Shown: positions 10,859-17,814 of the stretch, in pieces
Layout of the letters: each line of letters opens with the position of its first letter
How positions within the stretch are numbered: position 1 is the stretch's first letter
IMG/VR virus record: IMGVR_UViG_3300025030_000017
Span: 1 to 61,779 of that record
DNA from: a virus
Taxonomy: Duplodnaviria > Caudoviricetes
Direction: 5' to 3' (one strand)
DNA length: 61,779 bases
Notes under the pieces: generated by a model
What the model saw: the letters and a program-made list of their open reading frames with translations, nothing else
Database searches by the model: none
Told to the model about the DNA's origin: nothing
Position numbers and translations under genes: made by a program

Positions 10859-12367
10859 ATGTTCGAGCGAGTCAATCCTGTAACCGAAAGCATCAACGCA
10901 TATAAAGCAGTCAATGACATCTTCCGTGGTGATAGGGAAGAACAGAGGGCGATTGCCGAAACCGAGTACAACCGTAACCGTCAGGCAAGACTTGACGAGA
11001 TGAGCGCGGAGAGTCACAAGGCGGTGTTGGAATCGAACGCTCTGGCACAGGAAACGTCACGGCTTCAGTTGAAAAAAGAGAAGGACGCGGCAGAAGCGAA
11101 CAAATGGCAAGCAATCAAGCTCATGGCCCTCAGAAACCCGCAAGGCTGGTATAACGACCTTGACCCTTCTGACTCGGAAAGAATCATCGCAGAGACGAAA
11201 TCTGACCCCAAGTTTGCGTTTCTCCACACGCCGGAAGCGAGACGGACGCAGCTTGCGAAGATTCAGCAGATTTACGCCGCGATGCCGAATCCTGACAAGC
11301 CTCAATTTGACATGCCGAGTCTTCTGGAAGGGATGAATCACGTCTTCGCGTCTCAGCTTGCGAAAGGGACTGACGACAAGGGTGAGCCGGCGAAAAAGGA
11401 GATTGTCAGTTTCACGATGGACCCGCGAGACAAGTCGTTTATTCCGGAACTCAAGATAACAAGGAAAGACGGCAGTTCATATACCGCGCCGATGACCGTT
11501 GACCCTTTGACGGGTGAGCGCAGTTCCTCTCCTGACAGCATCGTGAAGAAGATTACCATTCCGCAGATTGCCGATTACCTTGGCGTAGCGGAAGGGCTTA
11601 TCAATCTGGCTGATGCGAAACAGGTGAGCCTTGGTGATGATGAACCGTTGAAACAAGCTATTACCGATGCCAAGACAGCCAAATCGTTCAAAGCCGTTAA
11701 GGATGCTGCACAAGCATTGCCGGAAGGCCCGTTGCGTGATGCGCTGATAGCGATTGCTCCCGGCGTGGCTTCAGGAGAAATCCCCGGTGCGATTGCCGAT
11801 ACGATGCTCAAGGCAGCAACGAAAACAGAGGAAAAACTTGATTTTAAAGAGGCTGGACATGGGCAAATTATCTGGCTAACAGGCCCGAAGAAGGGCCAAA
11901 AGGAACGTGTCCCGGTCAAGCCTGACAAAGAAGGTTCCGGTGCCGGTTCTAAGATGGGTGAGGCTGAAAAAACCCTCTATAACCAGATGATAAAAGCGTG
12001 GCAGGACATGAAGAAGATCACCAGTTTGCCGGCTGGCTCCAAGACAACCGTCGAAGAGTACGACCCGATCATGCAGACGACGAGGACCAAAGAAGTCACG
12101 GTGCAGAAAGAGACGGTTGATGCTGCAAGGGCTATCTATTACGGTCTTGAGAGACGCGGCATGGAGACGTATGGCTGGAAGCCAGATGCGACGAGTCCGA
12201 ATGCAAAGCAGGGTGCTGTAAAGAAACCCGACGAGTCAAAGGGAACAAAGATTGAAGTGAAGCAGTCGTTTAACGGCGGTGACGTGATTCTTGCGACTGA
12301 CGGGACGTACTACAAGAAGACGAAGAACGGCTATGTCAAGGCTAACGTCAAACAGCGAGGTGCATAA
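10859..12367 (+). CDS. Internal virion (ejection) protein
   Basis: About 500-aa helical protein; ATG at 10859 after GAGG. Confidence 0.6.
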   Translation: MFERVNPVTESINAYKAVNDIFRGDREEQRAIAETEYNRNRQARLDEMSAESHKAVLESNALAQETSRLQLKKEKDAAEANKWQAIKLMALRNPQGWYNDLDPSDSERIIAETKSDPKFAFLHTPEARRTQLAKIQQIYAAMPNPDKPQFDMPSLLEGMNHVFASQLAKGTDDKGEPAKKEIVSFTMDPRDKSFIPELKITRKDGSSYTAPMTVDPLTGERSSSPDSIVKKITIPQIADYLGVAEGLINLADAKQVSLGDDEPLKQAITDAKTAKSFKAVKDAAQALPEGPLRDALIAIAPGVASGEIPGAIADTMLKAATKTEEKLDFKEAGHGQIIWLTGPKKGQKERVPVKPDKEGSGAGSKMGEAEKTLYNQMIKAWQDMKKITSLPAGSKTTVEEYDPIMQTTRTKEVTVQKETVDAARAIYYGLERRGMETYGWKPDATSPNAKQGAVKKPDESKGTKIEVKQSFNGGDVILATDGTYYKKTKNGYVKANVKQRGA

Positions 12368-15300
12368 TGGCTGAACCGGTCATCTATTTGGATGAACTGC
12401 AAGACGATACTCCTGTTATTGACGTGGGGAGTTTGAAGCCGGATACGTCTACAGCCAAGGTTGAAAAGCCGAAGCGTTCTCTTGTCGGGGAATTTGGTGC
12501 CGGCCTTGCCCAAGGCGCGCTGCAACTGCCGCAGATGGTGGGGGGAGCTACCAAGCTGGCTGGCGATGCGATAGGTAGTGAAACGGTCAGCGCCTTGGGG
12601 AAAGACGCCATCAACTATTGGGGCAACAAACTGAAGCCCTATGAAGCGGAAGTGCCGTCATTTACCGATGTTGAAGATGCGGGAGACGCGGCGAAATACG
12701 TTGCTCATGGCGTCGGTGCGCTCGTCCCGACTGTCGCTGCGTCGGTCGTTTCAGGTGGTATCGGTGCCGGCCTTGCCAAAGAAGGCGTCAAACGCGCCAT
12801 AGCCAAGGAGATTGTCAAGCGCGAACTCAAGCACGAAGCCGTTGATCTCATGGCGAAAGGTGCCGTCAAGGAAACGGTGAAGAAAGCCGTTACCAGGGGG
12901 GCGATTGCGGGGGCCGGCGCTGCGAGTTACGGGATGGAAGCAGGAAGTATCTACACCGATCAAACTGAACAGGGCATCGAGAAACCTTTTAAGGCGGCGT
13001 TGACGGCGGTTCCTGCGGCGGCACTCGATGTCATCCCTGAGTTAAGAATCCTGTCGAAGATTCCTGCGTTCAAGGTCTTACAGGAGATCCCCTTCTTCAA
13101 GACTGCCGAAGGGCGTAATGCCCTTGTCAGAGGGGGGAAGGAAGCTCTCAAGCAAGGCGGGGCGGAAGGCGTTACCGAATTTGCTCAGACGCTTATCGAA
13201 CGGTACGGTGCCGACAAGGAAGCGTTCTCGAAAGAAGGTCTGTTGGAAGCGGCGAACGCTGGCATCCTTGGGGGCATTGGTGGCGGCATGATGGGTGGCG
13301 TTGCTGGTTCAGTGCAGAAACCGGCGACTGATACGAATCTGCTCAAAGAGGACTCCAAAGAAACCAGCGACATCGCTCAAGAGATCCTGCGGGTCAGAAA
13401 TCAGCCTCTTCCAGAACAAGCGCCTCCTGTCGCACAGCCTGAAGCCTACGATGGTCCGGTAATGGATGCCGAAGCACCGACTCCCGAAGACCTGGAGCTT
13501 CAGTCGATGCAACGCGAGAACGAGAACTACCGTCAGCAGCAGTTGATGGACAAACAGGACATCCCGACTGTGGAAGAGAAGCCCGTCCCGCAAGTCCCTT
13601 CGTCATTCAAGACGGTAGACGGCAAAGTGACGGTGAAGACCAAAGCTGTCGGTGAAGGCGTTTTTCAGGTCGAGACAACGAACATTGACGAGTACGGTCA
13701 CAAGAAGACGTTTGTTCAAGAGATGAACGCGGAAGATGCGGTCAAGCATATCGACAATGTAACGCCTCCCGTAACAAGGGATCAATATCTTCAGGTCAAA
13801 GGAGCGAATAATGAAGCAATGTCCGAAATGCAAACATCAAATGCTGAAGGCGACCAAAGTCTGCCCACGTTGCAAAACGAAGGTAGCGTAAATGATAGTC
13901 CAGAAACCGGAGGGGTGGTACGTCCAGTCGGAGAAGGGGCGCAACCTGGGGGGGCCGTATCAGACACAGCAACAAGCGCACTCCCGACAGGCGAAGGTGG
14001 AGGAATGTTGCCTGAGGGATCGACCGTCGAAACCGCGTCCTCCAAAGAAAGTAAAGCAAGTGATGAAACGTCCAAAACGGCTCCCAAAGTAGTCATCAAG
14101 TCTTTGTCTGACCTTCCCACTGGGCAACATGAGATAAAGGGTGCAGGGACGTTCCTCGTTGACGACAAGGGAAAAGTGAAGATCCTTCGCGGGACGAAAC
14201 TTGAGTCAGTCGATCCGATGCGTCGAAAGCTGGCAATCGACAAGTACAACGGGATGGTTCTTGCGGAGAAGCAGAAGGCAAATCTTGAAGCCCTGAAAGT
14301 CGGTAAGACGAAACAGAAAGCGATGGCAGAGGAAGCGCGGGGCATTGCTGAAGACGACGCTCCTTTCCTTCGTGCCGCTCTTCAGAACGTCAAGGATGCC
14401 GACTTTGGCAAAATTAGCGTCGATGGCAACCAAGCTGAAGCCACCTGGTCAACCTTTGGCGCGTTGATTCCGTATATCAGAGGGACGGGTTTCAACAAGG
14501 CCGATGCAGTGAAGATCATGGCGGAAGCGGTCAATACGGGTAAACTGCCTCCTGAGAAGAATAAAGCAGAGAGAAGTTTGGTAGAGTCTGCCCTGAAGCA
14601 TGAAAAGGAACGCATCGAGGAAGCGGAGAATCGCGTTGAGACGGAGGACGAGAGGCTTGTTCAGCAAGAGTTAGCAGAAGAAAGAGACACGGTAGAGGGC
14701 GGGGATACGAGTTTTGAGTTTGGGGAAGAACCTGAGTCTTCAGTTCTGATGGAAGGCGACCAACCCAAACTCTTCCCCACTCCCCCGACCTTTGGCAAGA
14801 AGCCGCAAGGGACAGGAACCGTCTCTGAAACGCCGATGCTCACGGAAATGAAGGAGCGGGAAGCGGAGTCGAAGCAGACTTCAATGACGCTTGACATGCT
14901 TGGGATGCAGCAGATTTACGAGTCCTTGACCGATGGAGCGATAAAGGCACACGCTGCAACCGCTTTGGATAAAGTGCATCGGATGCTTGAGAACCCCGGT
15001 GGCCTTGGTTCAATGGAACGGGGCAAGGAATACCTGCAACTGAAATATCTCTTAAGTGGCACTTTTGACAGGTTACAGGAAGTTCAAAGAAATCTGTACC
15101 AAGACTTTCGCAAGGCATCTAAGGAAACGAAGGAAAAGATTTTTGAGTTCATGGAAGACGCGCAAGCCGACCCATTGACGATTCCCGTCGAATACCGGCA
15201 GAAAGCAATCAACGCGAAAACAATGATTATGGAGGTTGGGGCTAAACTGGTTGCTCGTAAAATGCTGCCGGCTGAAATCTACGAAGAGAACAAGGGCCGG

Positions 15301-17814
15301 TATCTCCCGCGTGTTTACTTAAAGCATATCCTTGGTGAAGACGGACGGGCGATGGTGATGAACGGTTCTGGCATCAAGGCGTATCTCGGTTATCTGAAAA
15401 AGCGCCTCGAAATGACTCCTGAACAGAGACTCGCCTTGGGTCAGATTAAAGACCCTGGCTATCTCATTTCCCGCGCCTTTGGTGTGCCGATGCGTGATAT
15501 GGAAATCTTTGACTTCTTCGATGAGATGATTACGAATGACGAGGGCGAGGCTGCCTGGGTTTTGCCTGAATCAGCGACTCCGTGGACTGTAGACGGAGGC
15601 AAGGCGATACAGCAGGTTGGCAACGTGACCTACACCAAAAACGATGACGGCACGTATAACCTGACTATCAAGAAAGTATCTCACGTCCAAACGAAGAACA
15701 AGGCTATTCCCGCCTCCGACCTGAATCTTCTGTTGGGAAGCGACAAACTTGCTGACTACATCAAAGCCGGGAAGGGTAAGCAAGTAATGCGGAAGGACGG
15801 CGACGTTTACAAACCTACTCCCTGGAAACGGGTCGGGCATATCCAGTACCGCCTTAATCCTGACGGGACGTATAACGTCAATCTTACCAATAAGGTTGCC
15901 AGCGAAACAAAAGTTGATAACGTCAAAAATCTTGAAGACCATATCAGTGAGTACAAAGCGGAACGAATCACGGAGGGCAAAGGGAAAGTAGTCAATGGCC
16001 GCATGGTGACTCCTTATTGGTTGTCTGCCGAAGCCGACCGTATTCTTACCAAACAAATTCCTAACATGGCTGAACCGGACAGGTCGAAGGCTATTGAGAT
16101 TGCCAAAAGGATGCAGGACACGGCAGCAAAGATGATGGAGGGGCTTAACAAGACCCCTGAAGAAGTAGCCAAACATTTCCAAGCAATGCCGGATTCCCCG
16201 AAATATGGAGCGTTGAGAGGGCTGTGGGTACGCAGGGAAATCTATAACGATCTTGTCGGTAACATGAAGATCACCGTTGGCGAAAGATCGTGGCCTGAAT
16301 TTCTCTTGGATTACATGATGAATAAGGGTACATCGCTATGGAAATGGGTACATGTCGCGGCGAACCCTCCGACGCAGGTGGTCAACTTTATCTCCAACGG
16401 GTTTCTTTTGCATATCTCTGGCGTGCCTATGGCGATGGTGCCGTACCGTATAACTCAAGCCATAAGCGAGATGCTGGTAGGCAGTCCGAATTGGCAAAAG
16501 CTCAAAACAAAGATAGGCCCGGTGGCTGCGGCACGAGTGGAAAAGTTTGCCAAGGGCGGGAAACATTGGAAGATTGCAAAAGAAGGTGGGGTCAAGTCGG
16601 CAGGTATGGCAAACGTAGAACTGTACCGCGTTGAACAGGACATGCTCGACCTTATCGCCCTTGATAAGCCGTGGTGGCATCCGAAAGTCATGCTGAAGAT
16701 TGGCGGCAAAATCATGAATGCGACGGGTGACGTTTATCAGATGTGGGAGTCTATCGGTAAAACGGCGAAGATCATTCATGAAAAAGAAACTCCCCGGTGG
16801 CGCGAAAAGGATGGCAGCGTCAAGCCGTATGCCTTTGCTAGGGACAAAGGTAGTTCGACCTATCGGAAAGCTACCGATAACGAAGCAATCGTGGCGGCTC
16901 ACGATGCACTCTTTGATTATTCGCTGGCTCCAGGATGGGTGAAGTTTATCAGAAAGTTTCCGTTAGGGACTCCGTTTGTAACCTTTACTTACAAGGTTCT
17001 TCCCGCGACTATCAAGGCAGCGGCTCTTACACCGTGGGTCTTTACTCCGTATCTCGCTATTCATTACGGTCTTCCCTACGCGATCATGGCGATGACGGGT
17101 ATAGATGACAAAGACGATTACGACAAGCTGATGCAGACCATCTTTAAATTTGTCCGAGAGAAATCTCACGTCTACCTCTGGCCGGTTAAGGATGCTAAGG
17201 GCAGATGGCAAGCATTCGACCTTGGCAGATATATTCCCTGGGCGCAATGGATGGCCTTTCAGGATCATGTCAGAAAAAGAGAAATCGTAACCGCCTTCGC
17301 CGATGATCTTGGAGTGGGTAGTGGCCCTGCGATGGATCTTGTAGACTTGGCAAAAAACCAAGACTCTTTTACCAAACAACCGATATACGATGTGAACGCA
17401 GACTTCAACGAACAAGCTGGACAAGTGATGATGTACCTAACTCAGATGGCCACTCCCCCCTGGCTGACGAATAGAGGGTGGGCCGGCAAACTTTATTCAG
17501 CGATGAATAACGAGATTGGCAAACCTGGTGAACAAAAGCCTACTGTGGCACAAGCTAATCTGAGGCTTATCGGGGCGAATTTCTATCAGTTCGACCCTGA
17601 AATGTCGAGAGCACAAAACATTAACCAGATGGACTATGCAATTGCAGAGGTCAGGCAACAGAAAAATAGCGCTTTAAAGGACAGGGATTTAACTGACGCA
17701 GATAGAAAAGAAGTGACCTTAAAATACGATACGATAATCCAGAAAATGAACCTCAAGAAGATGAAGTACGCCGCCAACTCGATGCCGAAAGATCAGTCAT
17801 TACTACAACGCTAA
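12367..17814 (+). CDS. Giant internal virion / DNA ejection protein (large polyvalent-protein-like)
   Basis: 1815 aa; Gly/Ala hydrophobic N-terminus with EGVTEFAQT motif, C-terminal LFDY...PFVTF motif; last large gene of the virion operon. Confidence 0.75.
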   Translation: MAEPVIYLDELQDDTPVIDVGSLKPDTSTAKVEKPKRSLVGEFGAGLAQGALQLPQMVGGATKLAGDAIGSETVSALGKDAINYWGNKLKPYEAEVPSFTDVEDAGDAAKYVAHGVGALVPTVAASVVSGGIGAGLAKEGVKRAIAKEIVKRELKHEAVDLMAKGAVKETVKKAVTRGAIAGAGAASYGMEAGSIYTDQTEQGIEKPFKAALTAVPAAALDVIPELRILSKIPAFKVLQEIPFFKTAEGRNALVRGGKEALKQGGAEGVTEFAQTLIERYGADKEAFSKEGLLEAANAGILGGIGGGMMGGVAGSVQKPATDTNLLKEDSKETSDIAQEILRVRNQPLPEQAPPVAQPEAYDGPVMDAEAPTPEDLELQSMQRENENYRQQQLMDKQDIPTVEEKPVPQVPSSFKTVDGKVTVKTKAVGEGVFQVETTNIDEYGHKKTFVQEMNAEDAVKHIDNVTPPVTRDQYLQVKGANNEAMSEMQTSNAEGDQSLPTLQNEGSVNDSPETGGVVRPVGEGAQPGGAVSDTATSALPTGEGGGMLPEGSTVETASSKESKASDETSKTAPKVVIKSLSDLPTGQHEIKGAGTFLVDDKGKVKILRGTKLESVDPMRRKLAIDKYNGMVLAEKQKANLEALKVGKTKQKAMAEEARGIAEDDAPFLRAALQNVKDADFGKISVDGNQAEATWSTFGALIPYIRGTGFNKADAVKIMAEAVNTGKLPPEKNKAERSLVESALKHEKERIEEAENRVETEDERLVQQELAEERDTVEGGDTSFEFGEEPESSVLMEGDQPKLFPTPPTFGKKPQGTGTVSETPMLTEMKEREAESKQTSMTLDMLGMQQIYESLTDGAIKAHAATALDKVHRMLENPGGLGSMERGKEYLQLKYLLSGTFDRLQEVQRNLYQDFRKASKETKEKIFEFMEDAQADPLTIPVEYRQKAINAKTMIMEVGAKLVARKMLPAEIYEENKGRYLPRVYLKHILGEDGRAMVMNGSGIKAYLGYLKKRLEMTPEQRLALGQIKDPGYLISRAFGVPMRDMEIFDFFDEMITNDEGEAAWVLPESATPWTVDGGKAIQQVGNVTYTKNDDGTYNLTIKKVSHVQTKNKAIPASDLNLLLGSDKLADYIKAGKGKQVMRKDGDVYKPTPWKRVGHIQYRLNPDGTYNVNLTNKVASETKVDNVKNLEDHISEYKAERITEGKGKVVNGRMVTPYWLSAEADRILTKQIPNMAEPDRSKAIEIAKRMQDTAAKMMEGLNKTPEEVAKHFQAMPDSPKYGALRGLWVRREIYNDLVGNMKITVGERSWPEFLLDYMMNKGTSLWKWVHVAANPPTQVVNFISNGFLLHISGVPMAMVPYRITQAISEMLVGSPNWQKLKTKIGPVAAARVEKFAKGGKHWKIAKEGGVKSAGMANVELYRVEQDMLDLIALDKPWWHPKVMLKIGGKIMNATGDVYQMWESIGKTAKIIHEKETPRWREKDGSVKPYAFARDKGSSTYRKATDNEAIVAAHDALFDYSLAPGWVKFIRKFPLGTPFVTFTYKVLPATIKAAALTPWVFTPYLAIHYGLPYAIMAMTGIDDKDDYDKLMQTIFKFVREKSHVYLWPVKDAKGRWQAFDLGRYIPWAQWMAFQDHVRKREIVTAFADDLGVGSGPAMDLVDLAKNQDSFTKQPIYDVNADFNEQAGQVMMYLTQMATPPWLTNRGWAGKLYSAMNNEIGKPGEQKPTVAQANLRLIGANFYQFDPEMSRAQNINQMDYAIAEVRQQKNSALKDRDLTDADRKEVTLKYDTIIQKMNLKKMKYAANSMPKDQSLLQR
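13811..13891 (+). CDS. Nested 26-aa zinc-ribbon peptide in the +1 frame of the giant gene
   Basis: GGAG at 13801, MKQCPKCKHQMLKATKVCPRCKTKVA* with two CxxC. Confidence 0.5.
   Translation: MKQCPKCKHQMLKATKVCPRCKTKVA
13892..14092 (+). CDS. Nested small basic protein in the +1 frame of the giant gene
   Basis: Starts immediately after the TAA of the previous nested ORF; MIVQKPEGWYVQSEKGRNLGGPY resembles a small stand-alone phage protein family (from recall). Confidence 0.5.
   Translation: MIVQKPEGWYVQSEKGRNLGGPYQTQQQAHSRQAKVEECCLRDRPSKPRPPKKVKQVMKRPKRLPK

What the first reader, a model, noticed from the sequence alone, without database searches (positions are those of the whole stretch)
13801..14092. 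Two small genes overprinted in the +1 frame inside the giant ejection protein
Within a low-complexity linker of the 1815-aa ORF, a GGAG RBS precedes MKQCPKCKHQMLKATKVCPRCKTKVA*, a double-CxxC zinc ribbon. It is followed immediately (TAA-ATG) by MIVQKPEGWYVQSEKGRNLGGPYQT..., which resembles a small free-standing phage protein family (from recall). The main frame here looks disordered, as expected if selection acts on the nested frame. This suggests giant virion proteins absorb or shelter mini-operons in their linkers.
Basis: partly seen in the sequence, partly recalled or inferred. Interest (0 to 1): 0.7.

Follow-up and report, generated by a model that had tools for sequence, protein, structure and literature searches.

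The report
Two real genes hidden inside a giant phage gene
A stretch of a giant phage protein gene also encodes, in a shifted reading frame, two small conserved proteins, and the same small-protein family is hidden this way inside giant genes of many unrelated phages.

Summary
A 26-aa double-CPxC ORF (13811..13891) and a 66-aa ORF (13892..14092) lie in the +1 frame of the 1815-aa ORF 12367..17814. In five distinct versions of this phage clade the variable sites switch codon phase exactly over the nested ORFs: frame-0 positions 1/2/3 are 28/13/11 inside and 27/14/117 in the flanks (chi-square p 1e-10). All four Cys are kept while the host-frame residues change. Frame 0 stays open although only 0.085% of synonymous recodings would allow it.

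ORF2 belongs to a real, unnamed tiny-protein family. A search of 1.8 billion proteins gave 26 hits, the best at E 3.6e-8, and the family has no Pfam, NCBIfam or PDB entry. The family occurs free-standing, as an in-frame domain, or nested. Nesting is always in the +1 frame of giant polyvalent-type ORFs: 13 further distinct viral contigs and 2 MAG contigs. Each nested copy has its own ATG or GTG, and 13 of 14 tested have a Shine-Dalgarno core (background 0.14).

The small genes are therefore the older reading, and the giant protein's linker is their out-of-frame shadow. Expression is not shown and function is unknown; my guess is nucleic-acid binding. This is a new variant of nested phage genes.

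The parts
12367..17814 (+). Host gene: giant 1815-aa ORF (P0001), a mosaic polyvalent-type protein at the end of the structural gene block
   Evidence: Searches give the ORF. It matches no Pfam or PHROG family. Relatives L001, L002, L004 and L007 have the same gene with modules inserted or swapped. L007's copy has ART-PolyVal at E 5e-22, and L004's has a LAGLIDADG hit. The C-terminal ~900 aa are 25-30% identical to a 2166-aa protein of podovirus MW202615.
13798..13804 (+). Shine-Dalgarno-like AAAGGAG, 6 nt before the ORF1 start
   Evidence: One search shows it. It is kept in all five versions. A GGAG/GAGG core in this position occurs at 7.5% of positions in the giant gene.
13811..13891 (+). 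Nested gene 1 (+1 frame): 26-aa zinc-ribbon mini-protein with two CPxC knuckles 12 residues apart
   Evidence: Searches give the ORF. It has weak zinc-ribbon matches: Pfam DZR E 2e-4, 21.9 bits against a cut-off of 27.3, and phrog_10049 E 8.8e-4. All 4 Cys and both Pro are kept in the 5 versions, the x of the second knuckle varies R/K/N, and the host frame changes over the same bases. Variable sites in 4 sequences: 6 silent only in the nested frame, 2 silent only in the host frame.
13889..13894 (+). TAA-ATG junction: the stop of nested gene 1 abuts the start of nested gene 2 (probable translational coupling)
   Evidence: One search shows the junction. ORF2 has no GGAG/GAGG of its own in the window. 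In L002 a 114-nt insertion separates the two genes, and there AAGGAG lies 7 nt before the ORF2 ATG.
13892..14092 (+). Nested gene 2 (+1 frame): 66-aa member of an unnamed tiny-protein family (GKNLGGPY motif), with a predicted three-strand-plus-helix core (residues 1-42) and a basic disordered tail
   Evidence: phmmer against 1.84e9 proteins gave 26 hits at E <= 1e-3; the best was E 3.6e-8, 62% identical over residues 1-40. AlphaFold2 gave pLDDT 87-94 over residues 1-40. Variable sites in 5 sequences: 19 silent only in the nested frame, 5 silent only in the host frame, against 134 and 156 possible (binomial p 0.001).
13810..14094 (+). Dual-coded part of the host frame (codons 482-576 of P0001): a linker that is the -1 'shadow' of the two small genes
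   Evidence: The codon phase of the variable sites flips here: 28/13/11 inside against 27/14/117 in the flanks (chi-square 46.1, p 1e-10). Frame 0 has 0 stops and the third frame has 9. Only 85 of 100,000 synonymous recodings of both small genes keep frame 0 open.

Best explanation
Shown: window 13811..14092 is dual-coding DNA. Two small genes are read in the +1 frame of a giant, mosaic, polyvalent-type phage protein gene. The first is a 26-aa zinc ribbon. The second is a 66-aa member of a widespread unnamed tiny-protein family.

Inferred: both are translated from the same late mRNA by internal initiation. ORF1 would start from its own AAAGGAG-N6-ATG, and ORF2 by termination-reinitiation at TAAATG.

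Shown: selection on amino-acid sequence acts on the +1 frame. The host frame is kept free of stop codons and otherwise drifts, so it most likely serves as a disordered linker joining the N- and C-terminal parts of the giant protein (the linker role is inferred).

Inferred: because the ORF2 family exists free-standing and as an in-frame domain in many phages and bacteria, the small genes are the older reading. The giant gene took them up, by insertion into a linker or by fusion across them, and its linker is their out-of-frame shadow.

Shown: the same arrangement, always nested = host +1, recurs in other polyvalent-protein genes.

Guess (about 30%): the small proteins bind nucleic acid and act together with the giant protein inside the head or on the injected DNA.
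For: (1) Five distinct versions of the locus (window, L001, L002, L004, L007) keep both +1 ORFs, including starts, stops, 4 Cys and 2 Pro. The host-frame residues differ: for example, L004 has 2 changes in ORF2 and 8 in the host frame over the same bases.

(2) Variable sites by host codon position are 28/13/11 in 13831-14076, 8/5/52 upstream and 19/9/65 downstream. Chi-square is 46.1, p 1e-10.

(3) Site classes in ORF2: 19 changes silent only in the nested frame, 5 silent only in the host frame, 6 silent in neither, 1 silent in both. The possible changes are 134/156/312/1, giving p 0.001.

(4) ORF2 has 26 relatives at E <= 1e-3 among 1.84e9 proteins, the best at 3.6e-8. A pattern scan of viral contigs gave 132 confirmed places out of 138. 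The AF2 core is confident.

(5) Frame 0 remains open in 8.3% of recodings of ORF1, 0.96% of ORF2 and 0.085% of both. At the 24 sites where a T at nested position 3 would make a host stop, there is no T, against 9 of 69 elsewhere.

(6) Control across the family: the 42-codon core is open in the host-like frame in 13 of 13 nested copies, 3 of 31 free-standing copies and 0 of 18 in-frame copies.

(7) Outside this clade the family is nested in ORFs of 1123 to more than 2000 aa in 13 distinct viral loci, and all 13 are nested = host +1. The same holds for 2 MAG loci. The 14 distinct nested starts tested, which include the window-clade locus L011, are ATG (10) or GTG (4). Of these 14, 13 have GGAG/GAGG at -17..-4 against a background of 0.138, p 8e-11.

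(8) In L078 and L086 a stop in the nested frame lies 1 codon before the start.

(9) In the independent pair L033/L034 there is 1 difference in the 147-nt nested gene, against 224 in the +-600-nt flanks.

(10) Other hosts carry polyvalent-protein domains: InPase with LPD1, InPase with GGDEF, and 2'-5' RNA ligase. L007 carries ART-PolyVal.
Against: There is no expression evidence of any kind. No RNA run holds the locus, and the phage is uncultured.

The five versions are close relatives, probably from related groundwater samples. The counts therefore rest on only 31 (ORF2) and 13 (ORF1) variable sites.

ORF1 has no significant homologue: all tblastn hits are at E >= 0.6. It also stays below every Pfam cut-off, and its site-class excess (6 against 2) is not significant on its own.

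ORF2 departs from the family consensus in the helix, where the family's RL..VEYFK is only partly kept. It has an odd amino-acid make-up and sits on a long branch of 0.78. This could mean decay or a changed function before the five versions diverged.

ORF2 has no Shine-Dalgarno core of its own in the window.

The function is not established. No fold match is clear: best Foldseek E 0.93, best VIA Z 4.5.

Whether nesting arose once or several times is unresolved.
Confidence: 0.85

Rival explanations
1. The nested ORFs are silent relics. Small genes were swallowed by the giant gene and are no longer translated. Their conservation reflects constraint on the host protein or on the DNA or RNA, not on the small proteins.
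For: There are no expression data. The ORF2 helix deviates from the family consensus and its branch is long. ORF2 lacks its own Shine-Dalgarno core.
Against: The codon phase of variation follows the nested frame, not the host frame. Changes silent in the nested frame outnumber those silent in the host frame 19 to 5. Start codons and Shine-Dalgarno cores are kept in 13 of 14 nested lineages. In L002 the insertion falls exactly between the two small genes and keeps AAGGAG before ORF2.
Confidence: 0.05
2. The mechanism is programmed +1 ribosomal frameshifting rather than internal initiation. Some ribosomes translating the giant gene slip into the +1 frame and make a truncated N-terminal product that ends in the zinc ribbon. 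This would resemble proteins elsewhere that carry the family module at their C-terminus.
For: The module is the C-terminal domain of in-frame proteins in several loci: L063, L070, L071 and L083. In the window, 12 sense codons separate the nearest upstream +1-frame stop from the ORF1 ATG, so there is room for a shift.
Against: I saw no slippery site in those 12 codons; I checked by eye only. The nested copies have ATG or GTG exactly at the family's first residue, while in-frame internal copies have non-start codons there. Shine-Dalgarno cores are present in 13 of 14. In L078 and L086 the nested-frame stop lies 1 codon before the start, and in L044 and L057 5 codons before, which leaves almost no room for a shift. 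A shift into ORF1 would also not deliver ORF2, which lies behind a stop.
Confidence: 0.04
3. The 1815-aa ORF is not one protein. It is two genes with two small genes between them, and the open host frame across 13811..14092 is accidental.
For: About 10% of free-standing family genes are open in that frame by chance over the 42-codon core: 3 of 31, against 12.2% in the simulation.
Against: Over both genes only 0.085% of recodings stay open. The frame is open in 5 of 5 versions here, including a 114-nt in-frame insertion in L002 that is closed in the +1 frame. It is open in 13 of 13 nested copies elsewhere. Host-frame codon periodicity runs up to about 13830 and resumes at about 14077 with no stop. 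By eye I saw no start with a Shine-Dalgarno motif just downstream of 14092.
Confidence: 0.04

Closest known systems
Embedded spanin genes Rz/Rz1 of phage lambda, and other nested phage genes such as phiX174 E within D (recalled, not from any call)
   Same: A small gene lies wholly inside a larger gene on the same strand in a shifted frame. It has its own ribosome-binding site and start, and both products are made from one mRNA.
   Different: In those cases the inner gene is taken to have been born inside the outer one. Here the inner ORF2 belongs to a widespread independent family, and the outer reading is the derived one. Here two coupled inner genes sit in a linker of a 1815-aa mosaic protein, and the arrangement recurs in many unrelated giant genes.
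Polyvalent proteins of phages and conjugative elements (Iyer et al. 2017, PMC5512222; I saw the start of the abstract and two passages)
   Same: The host genes are giant mosaic multi-domain proteins carrying polyvalent-protein domains: ART-PolyVal, InPase and LPD1. The family module and zinc ribbons also occur as ordinary in-frame domains of such proteins.
   Different: In that paper the term counts were: frameshift 0, overlapping 0, zinc ribbon 0, linker 0, reading frame 1 and embedded 1, and neither of the last two concerns nested genes. An out-of-frame, separately initiated module inside the polyprotein gene is not described there. The window's own protein has no polyvalent-specific Pfam domain.
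Out-of-frame remodelling / overprinting (PMC8788219 and PMC8227390; search listing and start of abstracts only)
   Same: An existing coding sequence is read in a second frame and gives a new stretch of protein.
   Different: Here the new reading is a linker inside a giant protein, while the old reading stays functional in the same genome copy. The two are kept together over many lineages.
Programmed frameshift pairs such as the tail chaperones G/GT or T7 10A/10B (recalled)
   Same: Two frames of one stretch of a late phage gene are used.
   Different: Those need a slippery site and give fusion products. Here start codons, Shine-Dalgarno cores and stops placed directly upstream point to separate initiation.

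Membership tests
Nested (embedded) same-strand overlapping genes of phages | The inner ORF lies entirely within the outer ORF, on the same strand, in a different frame | tested here: met
   13811..13891 and 13892..14092 lie in frame +1 of 12367..17814.
Nested (embedded) same-strand overlapping genes of phages | The inner frame is under purifying selection at the protein level | tested here: met
   The codon phase flips: 28/13/11 against 27/14/117, p 1e-10. In ORF2, 19 changes are silent only in the nested frame and 5 only in the host frame. ORF1 alone (6 against 2) is only suggestive.
Nested (embedded) same-strand overlapping genes of phages | The outer frame is maintained (kept open) against expectation | tested here: met
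   0.085% of recodings stay open. The frame is open in 5 of 5 versions here and in 13 of 13 nested copies elsewhere, against 3 of 31 free-standing copies.
Nested (embedded) same-strand overlapping genes of phages | The inner gene has its own translation start signals | tested here: met
   ORF1 has AAAGGAG-N6-ATG, and ORF2 starts at a TAAATG junction. 13 of 14 nested relatives have a Shine-Dalgarno core.
Nested (embedded) same-strand overlapping genes of phages | Both products are detected | not testable with these tools
   No RNA run holds the locus, the phage is uncultured, and there is no proteomics.
Unnamed tiny-protein family with the GKNLGGPY motif (alignment A2) | Significant sequence similarity to free-standing members over the core | tested here: met
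   phmmer E 3.6e-8, 62% identity over residues 1-40. 26 hits at E <= 1e-3 among 1.84e9 proteins.
Unnamed tiny-protein family with the GKNLGGPY motif (alignment A2) | Invariant columns of the alignment (I2, G8, G16, L19, G20, G21, A29, R32, E37) | tested here: met
   These columns are invariant in A2, which includes the window's ORF2 as its first row.
Unnamed tiny-protein family with the GKNLGGPY motif (alignment A2) | Consensus C-terminal helix motif RLxQVEYFK | tested here: inconclusive
   R and VE are kept; L, Q and YFK are replaced in the window clade. The helix is still predicted at pLDDT about 87-94.
Zinc ribbon (Pfam DZR / Zn_ribbon families) | Two CxxC knuckles separated by a short beta-hairpin-sized spacer | tested here: met
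   CPKC-x12-CPRC. The Cys and Pro are kept in 5 versions.
Zinc ribbon (Pfam DZR / Zn_ribbon families) | Score above the family's gathering cut-off | tested here: not met
   The best match is DZR at 21.9 bits against a cut-off of 27.3, E 2e-4. At 26 aa the peptide is hardly able to reach it.
Polyvalent proteins (host gene) | Carries a polyvalent-protein-specific domain | tested here: inconclusive
   The window's P0001 has none. The close relative L007 has ART-PolyVal at E 5e-22. Hosts of other nested copies have InPase and LPD1.
Programmed ribosomal frameshift | A slippery site upstream of the second frame and no separate start | tested here: not met
   A start codon and a Shine-Dalgarno motif are present. 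Nested-frame stops lie 1-5 codons before the start in L078, L086, L044 and L057. The search for a slippery site was by eye only.

The most novel reading that the evidence does not exclude
The tiny three-strand-plus-helix protein gene is a recurrent dual-coding cassette of phage polyvalent proteins. An old, independently functional gene is carried in the +1 frame, and its out-of-frame shadow literally supplies a linker of the giant protein. This is overprinting in reverse. On this reading the arrangement is kept because the small protein, here together with a zinc-ribbon partner, must be made alongside the giant protein and works with it, for example by binding the packaged or injected DNA or by loading the giant protein into the head. 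Gene callers would then be systematically missing a conserved partner gene inside polyvalent-protein genes.
Probability: 0.45. Interest if true: 0.8.

Novelty: new variant of a known kind. Interest (0 to 1): 0.72.

Why it matters
Nested genes are discarded by standard gene callers. The word-index search of 5.8 billion predicted proteins found nothing for ORF2, although the family is abundant. This finding supplies a clean comparative signature of dual coding in a dsDNA phage, and it shows the arrangement is recurrent in giant polyvalent-protein genes: 13 further distinct viral contigs and 2 MAG contigs.

It also reverses the usual direction of overprinting. A piece of a giant protein is the alternative-frame reading of older small genes. 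That is one way mosaic giant proteins can grow linkers and keep accessory genes co-expressed.

Finally, it flags an uncharacterised tiny-protein family of about 44 aa that is widespread. It occurs in phages, at the N-terminus of the DUF2213 prohead core protein of Klebsiella, Salmonella and Escherichia phages, fused to a DNA ligase, and on chromosomal contigs of Acidobacteriota MAGs. It has no Pfam, NCBIfam or PDB entry.

Tried and rejected
- Megablast of the giant gene against GenBank phages found no match.
- The word-index protein search with ORF2 found no candidate.
- PHROGs, Pfam and NCBIfam gave nothing usable for ORF2. There were only weak matches to PHROGs of unknown function at E 0.03-0.04. 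The protein Atlas returned only 'hypothetical protein' clusters scoring 0.81-0.83, below its 0.9 lead level.
- A PDB sequence profile search with A2 found nothing below E 0.68.
- Fold searches of the ORF2 model were not decisive. Foldseek's best was E 0.93. VIA-align's best was Z 4.5, with the lambda Int DNA-binding domain at Z 3.6 and the AP2 GCC-box domain at Z 3.2 among many unrelated rows. I keep these only as a weak lead for DNA binding.
- tblastn of ORF1 against phages gave only hits at E >= 0.6.
- I tested whether the 688-aa protein upstream of the free-standing copy in Aeromonas phage 1233 is related to the giant protein. It is not: best BLASTP E 0.19.
- I tested whether the hosts of the other nested copies are homologues of P0001. 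There is no BLASTP similarity, and the hosts share only mosaic modules and the shadow segment among themselves.
- A tree of 62 module cores was too short (42 columns) to say whether nesting arose once. The nested label needs 12 changes against a shuffled mean of 13.5, and 86 of 500 shuffles were as low.
- The antisense 184-aa ORF 13791..14345 is not conserved: it is 73 and 82 aa in L001 and L004. I take it as a by-product of the T-poor sense strand, 13.8% T.
- There is no sigma-70-like promoter in 13300..14400.
- Sequencing runs: no RNA holder is listed, only DNA runs of groundwater or sediment metagenomes. Laying four of them showed strain variants at the same places as in the loci. These are contigs, only 40 of 144 differences are listed, and they are probably not independent of the loci, so I did not use them as evidence.
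- The search for related loci on genome contigs with A2 failed for lack of a conserved stretch.
- I sent no complex prediction, because I make no specific binding claim that it could test.
Full report
**What is there**

The window is a complete 61,779-bp virus record with direct terminal repeats. It carries a terminase, a portal-like protein, a DnaB-type helicase, an internal virion protein and a tail-fibre gene. ORF 12367..17814 (+) encodes 1815 aa (P0001). It matches no Pfam or PHROG family.

In its +1 frame lie ORF1 and ORF2. ORF1 is 13811..13891: 26 aa with two CPxC knuckles 12 residues apart. ORF2 is 13892..14092: 66 aa. GGAG at 13801-13804 lies 6 nt before the ORF1 ATG, and the ORF1 stop abuts the ORF2 start as TAAATG. 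The host frame over these bases (codons 482-576) reads as a Ser/Thr/Glu/Gly/Pro-rich stretch.

**Relatives**

GenBank phages hold no close relative. One podovirus genome, MW202615, has a 2166-aa protein that is 25-30% identical to the C-terminal ~900 aa.

Scans of IMG/VR and JGI metagenome contigs gave seven loci. In the region of interest they reduce to four distinct versions besides the window: L001 (=L003), L002 (=L005, L006), L004 and L007.

The giant gene is mosaic:
- L002 has an extra ~176-aa module.
- L004 is 2254 aa with a LAGLIDADG hit.
- L007 has a different N-terminus and an ART-PolyVal domain at E 5e-22.

I therefore call the host a polyvalent-type giant protein. That it is ejected is not shown.

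**The +1 frame is the selected one**

All five versions keep both nested ORFs with their starts and stops.

In ORF1 the four Cys and both Pro are invariant. The variable position of the second knuckle is R, K or N, and the host-frame residues over the same bases differ. In ORF2, L004 has 2 amino-acid changes and the host frame has 8 over the same bases.

Variable sites by host codon position:

| Region | pos 1 | pos 2 | pos 3 |
|---|---|---|---|
| 13831-14076 (nested) | 28 | 13 | 11 |
| 13471-13830 (upstream) | 8 | 5 | 52 |
| 14077-14616 (downstream) | 19 | 9 | 65 |

Host position 1 is nested position 3, so the phase of variation flips to the nested frame exactly over the nested genes. Chi-square is 46.1, p 1e-10.

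Each variable site was classed by its single-base effect:

| | silent only in nested frame | silent only in host frame | silent in neither | silent in both |
|---|---|---|---|---|
| ORF2, observed (5 sequences) | 19 | 5 | 6 | 1 |
| ORF2, possible | 134 | 156 | 312 | 1 |
| ORF1, observed (4 sequences; L002 left out, one codon shorter) | 6 | 2 | 4 | 1 |

For ORF2 the binomial p is 0.001. Changes silent only in the host frame are about as rare as changes silent in neither frame. The host-frame residues therefore seem almost free to vary.

**The host frame is nevertheless kept open**

I recoded both small proteins with the phage's codon usage (an earlier run of 20,000 is). Of 100,000 recodings, frame 0 stayed open in:
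- 8.3% for ORF1;
- 0.96% for ORF2;
- 0.085% for both together.

At the 24 nested codons where a third-position T would create a host stop, no T is present, against 9 of 69 elsewhere. The third frame has 9 stops.

L002 carries a 114-nt insertion exactly between the two nested genes. It is open in the host frame, closed in the +1 frame, and places AAGGAG 7 nt before the ORF2 ATG. Both frames are thus under selection: the nested one for sequence, the host one for continuity.

**ORF2 belongs to a real family**

- The word-index search found nothing, as expected if nested genes are not called.
- A full phmmer scan of 1.84e9 representatives found 26 proteins at E <= 1e-3. The best was E 3.6e-8, 62% identity over residues 1-40. 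Hits include free-standing proteins of 52-105 aa and modules in larger proteins.
- tblastn found an unannotated free-standing copy in Aeromonas phage 1233. It also found the N-terminus of the ~467-aa DUF2213-type 'prohead core' protein of many Klebsiella, Salmonella and Escherichia phages.
- The family has no Pfam, NCBIfam or PDB entry, and only weak PHROG matches of unknown function.
- AlphaFold2 with alignment A2 predicts three strands and a helix for residues 1-42 (pLDDT about 87-94) and a disordered basic tail. No fold match is clear.
- The window clade deviates from the family consensus in the helix and sits on a long branch.

**The arrangement recurs**

A pattern scan of viral contigs with A2 gave 138 stretches. 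Of these 132 were confirmed and 80 were kept as loci. Of the 80 loci:

| Arrangement | Loci | Distinct |
|---|---|---|
| Free-standing small ORF | 37 | 31 |
| In-frame module of a protein of 290-1161 aa | 23 | 18 |
| Small ORF nested in a much larger ORF | 20 | 14 (one is the window clade) |

The 13 distinct nested loci outside the clade are L024, L028, L033, L034, L040, L041, L044, L049, L057, L061, L078, L081 and L086. They lie in open frames from 1123 aa up to the whole 6.1-kb locus, and in all 13 the nested frame is host +1.

The 14 distinct nested loci counted are these 13 plus the window-clade locus L011. Their first codon is ATG (10) or GTG (4), whereas in-frame internal copies have non-start codons at that position. 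Of the 14, 13 have GGAG/GAGG at -17..-4 against a background of 0.138 in the host genes, p 8e-11. In L078 and L086 a nested-frame stop lies one codon before the start, which argues against frameshifting.

Further controls:
- The 42-codon core is open in the host-like frame in 13 of 13 nested copies, 3 of 31 free-standing copies and 0 of 18 in-frame copies.
- In the pair L033/L034 the nested gene has 1 difference in 147 nt, against 224 in the 1200 nt of flanks.
- The hosts are not BLAST-similar to P0001 and are mosaic among themselves. They carry polyvalent-protein domains: InPase with LPD1, InPase with GGDEF, and 2'-5' RNA ligase.

It gave 76 free-standing copies, mostly on large contigs of Acidobacteriota MAGs beside ordinary cellular genes. 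It also gave 2 in-frame copies and 2 nested copies, again host +1: L118 (host 1534 aa) and L133 (host 1194 aa).

**ORF1**

ORF1 is confined to the window clade. Its support is as follows:
- the zinc-ribbon pattern, CPxC..CPxC, occurs 2 times in the window against 0.00 in shuffles;
- it has weak matches to many zinc-ribbon models, all below cut-off;
- the Cys and Pro are conserved across five versions;
- it has its own Shine-Dalgarno motif;
- it is coupled to ORF2 through the TAAATG junction.

It has no significant homologue. Zinc-ribbon motifs precede the family module within one polypeptide in L053, L065 (three), L067 and L073. So the pairing of a zinc ribbon with this module is not unique to the window.

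**How it most likely works**

- Shown: dual coding with selection on the nested frame, and an open host frame.
- Inferred: both small proteins are translated from the giant gene's mRNA by internal initiation and coupling. No promoter-like site lies in 13300..14400.
- Inferred: the family is far wider than the nested state, and about 10-12% of free-standing copies happen to be open in the -1 frame. The small genes therefore came first and were taken into the giant gene. Layouts that may be intermediate are L045, L055 and L077. One origin or several is unresolved.
- Guess: the small proteins bind nucleic acid and act with the giant protein. The grounds are the basic tail, the fusions to a LigD-type DNA ligase, to the prohead core protein and to polyvalent proteins, and weak fold likeness to Int/AP2-type DNA-binding domains.

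**Comparison and novelty**

Nested same-strand genes with their own starts are known in phages; Rz/Rz1 and phiX174 are recalled examples, not from any call. Three things differ here: the direction (an old gene inside, a derived linker outside), the host (polyvalent-type giant proteins), and the recurrence.

Two literature searches found no paper that combines 'polyvalent protein' with terms for nested, embedded or overprinted genes. The polyvalent-protein paper holds no relevant mention; its supplements were not open. I rate the finding a new variant of a known kind, interest 0.72.

The main weakness is that no expression data exist.

Noticed in passing
L092-L171 (genome-contig loci), e.g. L101, L106, L147: The ORF2 family is very common as a highly conserved free-standing gene of about 44 aa on large contigs (up to 2.9 Mb) of Acidobacteriota and other MAGs. 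It sits beside ordinary cellular genes: isocitrate/isopropylmalate dehydrogenase, a sigma-54 activator and a Dabb-domain protein. It is therefore not only a phage family. A protein with an N-terminal zinc ribbon is the commonest neighbour (20 of 80 loci).
   Followed up: partly
L046:2950-5031: The family module forms the N-terminus of a 694-aa protein that also has a LigD 3'-phosphoesterase domain, an ATP-dependent DNA ligase domain and an OB domain. This is a hint that the module binds DNA.
   Followed up: no
L004:5581-12342 (residues ~1680-1725 of the giant protein): There are LAGLIDADG_3 / Hom_end hits inside the giant protein of a close relative. This may be an intein or a homing-endonuclease insertion. 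A weak GNAT hit lies at residues 801-854.
   Followed up: no
L007:2306-6475: The giant protein of this relative has a different N-terminus before residue ~322 of P0001. It also has an ART-PolyVal domain (E 5e-22), so modules are swapped between very close relatives.
   Followed up: partly
L045:399-4817: Three consecutive ORFs (699, 340 and 362 aa) lie in one frame; the first two are separated by a single stop. The family gene is nested in the +1 frame of the middle one. This could be a split or stop-interrupted giant gene, or an intermediate towards fusion.
   Followed up: no
window 13791..14345 (- strand): A 184-aa antisense ORF spans the nested genes. It shrinks to 73 and 82 aa in L001 and L004, so it is a by-product of the T-poor sense strand (13.8% T).
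   Followed up: yes
window 39528, 40508, 42268, 42490 (+ strand): Several further CxxC..CxxC zinc-ribbon-like patterns lie in small ORFs of the early or middle region. The phage seems rich in zinc-ribbon mini-proteins.
   Followed up: no
L002:2377-2493: A 114-nt (38-codon) insertion lies exactly between the two nested genes, and a further ~176-aa module is inserted in a later linker of the giant protein. Linkers of this gene are hot spots for insertion.
   Followed up: partly
L008:2480-2632 (Aeromonas phage 1233, OR359403): A free-standing family member is not annotated in the GenBank record, which lists only 28 features for 67 kb.
   Followed up: partly
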